From assembly GCF_009914755.1 (NCBI RefSeq), contig NC_060943.1: a stretch of DNA of 64,000 nucleotides. One strand, given 5' to 3'. The notes under the pieces are model-generated. The model saw nothing but the letters and a program-made list of their open reading frames with translations, did not search any database and was not told the origin of the DNA. Below, in pieces: positions 40,072 through 58,672 of this stretch; within the stretch, counting starts at the first letter, position 1; the number at the start of each line of letters is the position of its first letter. The DNA is from the human T2T-CHM13v2.0 reference genome, Homo sapiens. The position numbers and the translations under genes are program-made.

Positions 40072-58672
<18,601 letters not shown>

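What the first reader, a model, noticed from the sequence alone, without database searches (positions are those of the whole stretch)
45797..45820. A CAGCAG tandem acceptor sits in the middle of the HA-1 epitope
Seen: exon 3 is preceded by ctctccc-CAG-CAG (45800-45802, 45803-45805). The distal AG yields VLHDDLLEA; the proximal AG adds 3 nt and yields VLHDADLLEA. Established: CAGCAG is the NAGNAG class most often alternatively used. Inference: a fraction of transcripts lose or change the 9-mer without any DNA change, which could tune antigen density or allow escape from HA-1 TCR therapy, especially in splicing-factor-mutant leukaemia, and may create a new 10-mer. I am not aware of this being described.
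Basis: partly seen in the sequence, partly recalled or inferred. Interest (0 to 1): 0.8.

Follow-up and report, generated by a model that had tools for sequence, protein, structure and literature searches.

The report
Tandem splice acceptor inside HA-1 epitope
The intron in front of the exon that completes the HA-1 transplant antigen of ARHGAP45 really ends in CAGCAG, so a second splice choice would add one alanine inside the antigen, but whether cells use that choice could not be measured here and the signs point to a minor share at most.

Summary
The sequence observation is correct. The intron ends ...CTCTCCC-CAG(45800-45802)-CAG(45803-45805), and the annotated exon starts at 45806. Joining 41409 to 45806 gives VLHDDLLEA. 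Joining 41409 to 45803 adds GCA in frame and gives VLHDADLLEA.

Use of the upstream (proximal) AG is not shown. None of the 10 RefSeq ARHGAP45 mRNAs uses 45803, although RefSeq lists 163 acceptor pairs 3 nt apart on chr19. None of the 4 partial orthologue proteins that cross the junction has an extra residue. No sequencing reads were available.

By sequence the proximal AG is a competent site: 10.4 against 9.3 bits in my own weight matrix. It also carries the published marks of a site that loses to the distal AG:
- a C at -4;
- a 7-nt CT-rich pyrimidine tract that abuts it;
- the only consensus branch motif just 16 nt upstream.

My reading is a distal-major tandem acceptor with a minor +Ala isoform, placed in a predicted loop between two helices. 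That would dilute HA-1 in proportion to its share. It is not a route to escape. Neither the site nor the 10-mer appears in any paper text I searched. It is a new member of a known kind.

The parts
41397..41409 (+). Last 13 bases of ARHGAP45 exon 41079-41409: GTG CTG CAT GAC G. They encode V L H D and the first base of the split codon. CAT at 41403-41405 is the polymorphic His codon of HA-1; the reference letters read His.
   Evidence: The epitope and its SNP are as listed in the tables seen.
41410..41411 (+). GT donor of the 4396-nt intron (41410-45805) that splits the epitope.
45783..45787 (+). Candidate branch site CTCAC, with the branch A at 45786. It is the only yTnAy motif in the last 60 intron bases, 16 nt before the proximal G and 19 nt before the distal G. 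It is predicted, not mapped.
45793..45799 (+). Polypyrimidine tract CTCTCCC, 7 nt and CT-rich, abutting the tandem acceptor. Base 45799 (C) is the -4 base of the proximal site.
45800..45802 (+). Proximal (upstream) CAG. If used, the exon starts at 45803 and one Ala codon (GCA) is added. It is not annotated.
   Evidence: Own weight-matrix score 10.4 bits, 54th percentile.
45803..45805 (+). Distal (downstream) CAG, the annotated acceptor, used by 9 of 10 RefSeq mRNAs.
   Evidence: Own weight-matrix score 9.3 bits, 39th percentile.
45806..45949 (+). Annotated exon. Its first 14 bases, AC CTC CTT GAG GCC (45806-45819), complete D L L E A of the epitope. The exon encodes part of the Pfam domain RHG29_45_N.
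43871..44019 (+). Alternative first exon of NM_001282335.3 (coding from 43950). It splices to the same tandem acceptor in the same phase and yields a protein without the V-L-H part, so without the HA-1 9-mer.

Best explanation
This is a genuine CAGCAG tandem 3' splice site at the end of the ARHGAP45 intron that splits the HA-1 epitope. The two AGs share one branch site and one pyrimidine tract. The choice between them is made at the second catalytic step of splicing, by which AG docks in the active centre. The distal AG is the main site and gives the known protein and the HA-1 ligands. The proximal AG is intrinsically competent but handicapped by a C at -4 and a short distance to the likely branch point. 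It is therefore probably used in a minority of transcripts; my estimate is somewhere between 1% and 25%. The result is an isoform with one extra alanine between Asp140 and Asp141, in a short loop between the first two helices of the N-terminal RHG29_45_N domain. The A*02:01 9-mer and the B*40:01 9-mer both span the junction. Each proximal-AG transcript is therefore one that cannot give either ligand, so the effect on antigen density is a proportional dilution. Shown: the sequence, the frame, the annotation and the cis features. Inferred: branch point use, the isoform share, tolerance of the insertion and all of the immunology.
For: The distal site is the annotated one: 9 of 10 RefSeq mRNAs use it, and 8 of them join 41409 to 45806.

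The two sites are closely matched. My weight matrix, trained on 381 non-NAGNAG acceptors, gives 10.4 bits for the proximal and 9.3 for the distal site. That is the smallest difference among the CAGCAG events of the sample. Bradley 2012 associates such matching with alternative use and regulation (sections read).

Features that published work ties to distal preference are present:
- There is a pyrimidine at -4 of the proximal site. Bradley 2012 tested this with a minigene. In a 2026 preprint, Prp8 F1509 stacks on -4, C/U is weak, the distal site always has -4G, and C-to-G at -4 drives near-complete proximal use.
- The pyrimidine tract is CT-rich and abuts the NAG.
- The only yTnAy motif lies 16 nt from the proximal G. 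That is the 23rd percentile of nearest-motif distances in 230 control sites. About 14 nt downstream of the branch A sit in the PRP8 exit channel. Shortening the branch-to-AG distance shifted splicing to the distal NAG.

The junction lies in Pfam PF24235, in a predicted 5-residue break between two helices of a rodent orthologue fragment. A fish fragment has one residue fewer at exactly this spot, so length is not fixed there.

Both HA-1 ligands span the junction (tables seen).
Against: There is no direct evidence that the proximal AG is used at all:
- 0 of 10 RefSeq mRNAs use it, although RefSeq lists 163 acceptor pairs 3 nt apart on chr19 and both forms for 4 of 8 CAGCAG events in my sample.
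- 0 of 4 orthologue fragments crossing the junction carry an extra residue.

In the other direction, Bradley's two-parameter model applied to my score difference gives about 77% proximal use. That contradicts 'distal major' unless the -4 base and branch-distance effects are strong. The model was fitted to MaxEnt scores, not to my matrix, so the number is rough.

The 7-nt pyrimidine tract is not short for this GC-rich sample: the median is 7, and 60% of 369 control sites have 7 or fewer. The branch point is predicted, not mapped. The structure model is only moderately confident (mean pLDDT 53; about 71-79 around the junction; 5 sequences).
Confidence: 0.55

Rival explanations
1. The proximal AG is essentially never used (well under 1%). 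The acceptor is then effectively constitutive at the distal AG, and the CAGCAG is only a motif with no consequence for HA-1.
For: 0 of 10 RefSeq mRNAs use 45803, for a gene that RefSeq models with 5 Gnomon variants. 0 of 4 orthologue fragments have the longer form. The -4 C and the branch motif 16 nt upstream both disfavour the proximal AG. In the EST era only 39% of HAGHAG acceptors were confirmed as alternative.
Against: Distal-only use is typical of GAGHAG, not CAGCAG: 68.6% of distal-only cases were GAGHAG. In my sample all 4 GAGCAG events are distal-only, while CAGCAG events are mixed. The published default is a preference for the proximal site. The proximal site scores higher than the distal one. 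In the 2026 preprint, sites with a weak -4 C/U and a strong distal CAG are the class that uses both AGs and responds to FAM32A, SDE2 and PRP18.
Confidence: 0.3
2. The proximal AG is used at a substantial and regulated level (25% or more in some cell types or leukaemias). HA-1 ligand density would then differ between cells without any DNA change, and a second, allele-specific 10-mer ligand might exist.
For: The two sites are nearly equal in strength, which Bradley 2012 links to regulation. 73% of expressed human coding NAGNAGs showed tissue-specific regulation. Knockdown of single C* proteins shifted 15-30% of quantified NAGNAGs. This heptamer, C-CAGCAG, is the factor-dependent class. SF3B1 K700E can shift a NAGNAG, as shown for TARBP1.
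Against: A form at 25% or more in blood would be expected in RefSeq, which has none. Both sites have C at -3, so U2AF1 S34F has no handle. In that study, NAGNAG changes did not follow differential U2AF1 binding. NAGNAG shifts are a minor category under SF3B1 K700E. Reported changes on factor knockdown were quantitative, not all-or-none. The 10-mer was not found in any searched paper text.
Confidence: 0.1

Closest known systems
Alternatively spliced NAGNAG (tandem) acceptors, as catalogued by Hiller and colleagues in TassDB and quantified by Bradley et al. 2012
   Same: The intron ends in a plausible HAGHAG motif (CAGCAG). The 3-nt difference is in frame and gives a single-residue indel, here Ala, the same outcome as the phase-1 CAGCAG example in the TassDB paper. 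The site lies at an exon-exon boundary where orthologues differ in length by one residue. Bradley 2012 describes such boundaries as evolving fast; I saw that section's heading in the outline but did not read the section.
   Different: Use of both AGs is the defining property, and it is not shown here. No annotation supports it, and no reads were available.
'Distal major' YAGYAG class (Bradley 2012) and the FAM32A/SDE2/PRP18-dependent NAGNAG class (Dybkov 2023; 2026 bioRxiv preprint)
   Same: C at -4 of the proximal site, a strong distal CAG, a CT-rich tract abutting the NAG, and a short predicted branch-to-AG distance.
   Different: The tract length (7 nt) equals the median of local control sites. 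The branch point is predicted only. No knockdown data for this gene were visible, because the lists are in supplements that are closed.
Minor histocompatibility antigens that depend on splicing (HMSD/ACC-6, ZNF419/ZAPHIR, an ITGB2 splice variant), cited in the reviews seen
   Same: Splice choice decides whether a T-cell ligand exists.
   Different: In those cases a DNA polymorphism changes splicing and creates the donor-recipient difference. Here the HA-1 difference is the known His/Arg codon. The tandem acceptor would act equally on both alleles, as a modifier of amount. The 2016 review lists HA-1 with 'normal' transcript and protein.

Membership tests
NAGNAG tandem acceptor (alternatively spliced) | The intron ends in NAGNAG and the annotated acceptor is one of the two AGs. 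| tested here: met
   CAG 45800-45802, CAG 45803-45805, exon start 45806.
NAGNAG tandem acceptor (alternatively spliced) | Both -3 bases are non-G ('plausible' HAGHAG). | tested here: met
   Both are C.
NAGNAG tandem acceptor (alternatively spliced) | Both AGs are seen in transcripts. | tested here: inconclusive
   0 of 10 RefSeq mRNAs use 45803. No reads or ESTs were available. There is no retrocopy of the junction in the genome. 0 of 4 orthologue fragments have the longer form.
NAGNAG tandem acceptor (alternatively spliced) | The extra NAG keeps the frame and makes no stop codon. | tested here: met
   G|CAG AC reads GCA GAC, which is Ala-Asp.
NAGNAG tandem acceptor (alternatively spliced) | The tandem motif is conserved in orthologous introns. 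This marks regulated events. | not testable with these tools
   No other vertebrate genome was on hand. Only protein fragments could be compared.
Distal-major YAGYAG (Bradley 2012) | Pyrimidine at -4 of the proximal site. | tested here: met
   C at 45799.
Distal-major YAGYAG (Bradley 2012) | Short, distally placed, CT/TC-rich pyrimidine tract. | tested here: inconclusive
   CTCTCCC, 7 nt, gap 0 to the -3 base and CT-rich. However, 7 nt is the median of 369 control sites in this sample.
Distal-major YAGYAG (Bradley 2012) | Branch site close to the tandem acceptor. | tested here: inconclusive
   The only yTnAy motif is 16 and 19 nt upstream of the two Gs (23rd and 39th percentile of control distances). 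It is a motif prediction, not a mapped branch point.
FAM32A/SDE2/PRP18-dependent NAGNAG (2026 preprint) | The proximal share falls when these exon-ligation factors are perturbed. | not testable with these tools
   Only the cis signature (weak -4 C, strong distal CAG) could be checked, and it is present.
Splicing-dependent minor histocompatibility antigen | A polymorphism changes splicing and thereby creates the antigenic difference. | not tested
   I looked up no variant in the tandem site. The known HA-1 difference is the His/Arg codon in the upstream exon.

The most novel reading that the evidence does not exclude
The proximal AG is used at a sizeable share that depends on cell type or on exon-ligation factors in haematopoietic and leukaemic cells. 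The density of both HA-1 ligands (A*02:01 and B*40:01) would then be set partly at catalytic step 2 of splicing. The +Ala isoform would supply a second His/Arg-polymorphic 10-mer ligand that current HA-1 reagents do not see.
Probability: 0.1. Interest if true: 0.6.

Novelty: new member of a known kind. Interest (0 to 1): 0.35.

Why it matters
HA-1 is the most studied human minor histocompatibility antigen and a current TCR-T target (review passages seen). That review treats loss of the antigen as unlikely because the protein is needed for AML cell survival.

A tandem acceptor inside the epitope would be a way to lower ligand supply without losing the protein. The +Ala isoform keeps the whole protein and puts the change in a predicted loop. 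If the proximal share is small, as I expect, it is a footnote: a few percent fewer ligands. If it is large or regulated, it would bear on target density, on assays that infer antigen from mRNA level, and on peptide databases built from RefSeq, which would miss the 10-mer.

The question can be settled quickly with public RNA-seq. Separately, two annotated promoters give ARHGAP45 proteins without the epitope. That is a larger, already annotated route to epitope-free product.

Tried and rejected
1. Isoform evidence from protein databases. Searching with the exon-2 translation (110 aa) gave only 2 named fragments, and both read on into the intron. A second search with the marmot fragment P0001 gave 8 hits, of which 4 cross the junction. 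Full-length orthologues could not be reached, because a spliced query may not be typed and candidates must be 0.55-1.75 times the query's length. Clusters at 90% identity would in any case hide a one-residue isoform. 64 and 561 candidates of unnamed source were left out by the tool.

2. A processed copy of the mRNA junction elsewhere in the genome. There is none: only the gene itself matched.

3. A chr19-wide calibration of CAGCAG acceptors. I planned 120-140 stretches and obtained 20 stretches of 10 kb (one search returned half of each 20 kb asked). The sample is therefore small: 418 acceptors, 36 NAGNAG events, 8 CAGCAG. Of the 418, 417 end in AG. The one left out of the counts is the POLR2E acceptor at 62631, which ends in CG. 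The table lists 31 of the 36 events, because my script counted an acceptor with a NAG on both sides only once.

4. MaxEnt scores were not available. I used my own weight matrix, so the 77% from Bradley's model is only indicative.

5. 'Short pyrimidine tract' as an argument was rejected, because 7 nt is the median of local controls.

6. An SF3B1-type upstream cryptic AG was rejected. There is no AG between 45752 and 45800. The 10-30 nt rule is recalled, not read.

7. The POLR2E 3-nt acceptor pair in the window was meant as a local positive control. It turned out not to be a NAGNAG.

8. Paper searches were badly framed and gave nothing useful; the paper on mis-splicing neoantigens is not held.

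9. Supplements are closed. Bradley 2012 Table S2 (the list of genes with alternative NAGNAGs) and data S7 of Dybkov 2023 may list this gene, and I could not see them.

10. HLA binding of the 10-mer could not be computed.

What I saw of each paper:
- PMC3250501: outline and sections 7, 10, 11 and 20, plus passages.
- 10.64898/2026.08.05.741260: passages and section 7.
- PMC9984181: passages and section 18.
- PMC1669710, PMC2699507, PMC1431707, PMC10415613, PMC6911043, PMC7283489, PMC13578979, PMC4791598, PMC7326952, PMC3035791: passages only.
- Recalled and not read: Hiller 2004, den Haan 1998, Wilke 1998, and the notion that mixed sequencing traces would have exposed a large +3 isoform.

Full report
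**What is in the sequence**

Window 45790-45819 reads cgactctccc cagcagacct ccttgaggcc. The intron therefore ends CTCTCCC-CAG-CAG. The two CAGs are at 45800-45802 and 45803-45805, and the RefSeq exon starts at 45806. The upstream exon ends ...aag gag tgt gtg ctg cat gac g at 41409, followed by gtgagag. Its translation ends ...KLKECVLHD, and the next exon continues [12 protein letters not shown]... after the split codon.

The intron is in phase 1 (G|AC). The annotated junction gives V-L-H-D-D-L-L-E-A. A junction at 45803 would read GAC GCA GAC CTC. That is one alanine inserted between Asp140 and Asp141 of the 1136-residue isoform, in frame and with no stop. My numbering follows the coding parts: 30 codons in the first exon and 110 in the second. 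The reference letters carry the His codon (CAT, 41403-41405).

**Is it more than chance?**

No, and it does not need to be. About 6% of human acceptors are NAGNAG (TassDB paper). I took every RefSeq mRNA acceptor for which I held sequence, from the window plus 20 stretches of 10 kb from acceptor-dense parts of chr19. That gave 418 acceptors, of which 417 end in AG. Those 417 yielded 36 NAGNAG events, 8 of them CAGCAG. The motif is ordinary; only its position inside a clinically used epitope is notable.

**What annotation says**

RefSeq has 10 ARHGAP45 mRNAs here:
- 8 join 41409 to 45806.
- 1 (NM_001282335.3) joins an alternative first exon ending at 44019 to 45806.
- 1 (NM_001282334.2) starts at 50049.
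- None starts an exon at 45803.

This absence is not because RefSeq ignores such events. On chr19 it lists 163 acceptor pairs exactly 3 nt apart in 145 genes, among 12,567 distinct acceptors. Only 24 pairs are 4 nt apart, and only 9 donor pairs are 3 nt apart. I checked sequence for only a few of the 163 pairs, and one in this window, in POLR2E, is not a NAGNAG.

In my sample RefSeq gives both forms for 4 of 8 CAGCAG events, distal only for 2 (this one and one in DCAF15) and proximal only for 2. For the other 28 NAGNAG events it gives both forms in 2. The missing annotation is therefore a real, though weak, sign that the proximal form is not abundant.

**What the cis elements say**

I trained a weight matrix (-20 to +3) on the 381 AG acceptors of the sample that have no NAGNAG. 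The proximal site scores 10.4 bits (54th percentile of the training set) and the distal site 9.3 bits (39th percentile). The difference of 1.1 bits is the smallest among the CAGCAG events of the sample.

Bradley et al. 2012 found an inherent preference for the proximal NAG. Their two-parameter model (Q = 0.55, B = 0.58) gives about 77% proximal use for my score difference. That number is rough, because their scores were MaxEnt and mine are not. It does show that nothing in plain site strength explains why the distal AG is the annotated one.

Three more specific features point to the distal AG.

1. The -4 base of the proximal site is C (45799). Bradley et al. found a pyrimidine at -4 to be the most informative position in 'distal major' YAGYAGs. 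In a minigene, a purine there shifted splicing to the proximal NAG. A 2026 preprint gives a structural reason. Prp8 F1509 stacks on -4. The distal site of any NAGNAG has G there. A proximal -4 C or U docks weakly and depends on FAM32A, SDE2 and PRP18. Changing C to G (GCAGCAG) drove near-complete proximal use.

2. The pyrimidine tract is CTCTCCC. It abuts the NAG and is CT-rich, as in the distal-major class. Its 7-nt length, however, equals the median of my 369 control sites, so I do not count length as evidence.

3. The only yTnAy motif in the last 60 intron bases is CTCAC, with its A at 45786. It lies 16 nt from the proximal G and 19 nt from the distal G. These are the 23rd and 39th percentiles of the nearest-motif distances in the 230 of 381 control sites that have such a motif. 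About 14 nt downstream of the branch A lie in the PRP8 exit channel in the C complex. In Bradley's minigenes a shorter branch-to-AG distance favoured the distal NAG. The branch point here is predicted, not mapped.

**Mechanism**

Dybkov et al. 2023 and the 2026 preprint place the choice between the two AGs after step 1 of splicing. It is made when the C* spliceosome docks a 3' splice site.

For this site I infer the following. The proximal AG emerges first but docks poorly because of the -4 C and the tight loop. The distal AG, with its -4 G and three more bases of loop, usually wins. By its heptamer (C-CAGCAG) the site belongs to the class described as factor-dependent. Some proximal use, sensitive to the levels of FAM32A, SDE2, PRP18 or NOSIP, is therefore what published rules predict.

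My estimates, which are judgement and not measurement:
- about 0.8 that the proximal form is detectable at 1% or more;
- about 0.4 that it reaches 5% in some blood cell type;
- under 0.1 that it reaches 25%.

**Comparative and protein evidence**

No other vertebrate genome was available, so conservation of the intronic CAG could not be tested. Two protein searches gave 4 partial orthologues that cross the junction:
- a rodent fragment with VLRDDLLEA;
- a bird fragment with VLRDDPKES;
- a lizard fragment with VLQEDGVES;
- a fish fragment with one residue fewer (VLAEG-KES).

None has an extra residue. A fifth fragment lacks the segment altogether, and three others read on into the intron.

The junction lies inside the Pfam domain RHG29_45_N (PF24235). 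Exon-3 residues 4-47 match profile positions 31-74. An AlphaFold2 model of the rodent fragment predicts helices at 150-175 and 181-204, with a 5-residue break at 176-180. The model used a 5-sequence alignment, has mean pLDDT 53, and has pLDDT of about 71-79 in this part. The junction (Asp177|Asp178 of that fragment) is in the middle of the break. The residues of the break are the least conserved part of the segment, and its length differs in fish. An added alanine there would probably be tolerated. This fits either harmless noise or a tuned loop, and does not decide between them.

**Consequences for HA-1**

Two ligands span the junction: the A*02:01 ligand VL[H/R]DDLLEA and the B*40:01 ligand KECVL[H/R]DDL (tables seen). 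A proximal-AG transcript can give neither. It could give 10-mers that keep the anchor residues and the polymorphic position. Whether the A2 10-mer binds or is seen by HA-1 TCRs is unknown, and I could not compute binding. The string occurs in no searched paper text.

The loss of ligand is at most equal to the proximal share, and it acts on both alleles alike. Escape from a TCR would need a near-complete switch, and the evidence I saw does not support one:
- Knockdown effects on NAGNAGs are quantitative, not all-or-none.
- U2AF1 S34F acts through the -3 base, which is C at both sites. In the one study I read, NAGNAG changes did not track differential binding.
- SF3B1 K700E shifts NAGNAGs only as a minor category. 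There is no upstream AG between 45752 and 45800 for the usual cryptic-site effect.

The 'tuning' idea is therefore possible but probably small, and the 'escape' idea is unlikely.

**Novelty**

No paper in the held library has NAGNAG together with HMHA1 or with ARHGAP45. None has the 10-mer. A 2016 review lists HA-1 under 'normal' transcript and protein. A 2026 review of MiHA TCR-T does not mention splicing of the epitope in the passages I saw. Supplements and subscription-only papers were not searched, so the site may well sit unremarked in a table. The kind of feature is well known; this instance appears to be unremarked.

**Verdict**

It is a real CAGCAG tandem acceptor, and its use is unproven. 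The most likely picture is distal-major splicing with a minor +Ala isoform. Interest is modest, and the question could be settled with public junction counts.

Noticed in passing
window 43871-44019 and 50049-50698: Two annotated alternative promoters give ARHGAP45 proteins that lack the HA-1 epitope. NM_001282335.3 has the first exon 43871-44019, coding from 43950, joined to 45806. NM_001282334.2 starts at 50049. Their share of transcripts would lower ligand supply more directly than the tandem acceptor.
   Followed up: partly
window 62628-62631, minus strand (POLR2E): RefSeq lists two acceptors 3 nt apart. The curated one (62628) follows CAG. The Gnomon one (62631) follows CG, so it is not an AG acceptor and the pair is not a NAGNAG. 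It is possibly a model artefact. It also means the 163 chr19 pairs 3 nt apart are not all NAGNAGs.
   Followed up: partly
window 52901-53193: Three Gnomon models (XM_054320404.1, XM_054320405.1, XM_054320406.1) keep the 84-nt intron 53026-53109 in frame, adding 28 residues.
   Followed up: no
window 41076-41081: The acceptor of the epitope-bearing exon itself is AAG|GAG, another NAGNAG motif. It is annotated as proximal only, and its downstream GAG scores very low (-4.3 bits).
   Followed up: partly
P0007 (fish) and P0008 (fish) against P0003, P0004 and P0006, alignment A1 columns 300-306: Orthologue fragments differ in length by one residue exactly at this exon-exon boundary, and one lacks the segment. 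These are low-quality partial annotations, so this may be model error rather than biology.
   Followed up: no
L014 (chr19 14080864-14080870) and L013 (chr19 12783009-12783015): DCAF15 and MAN2B1 have triple CAGCAGCAG acceptors. RefSeq annotates only the middle AG in DCAF15 and all three in MAN2B1.
   Followed up: no
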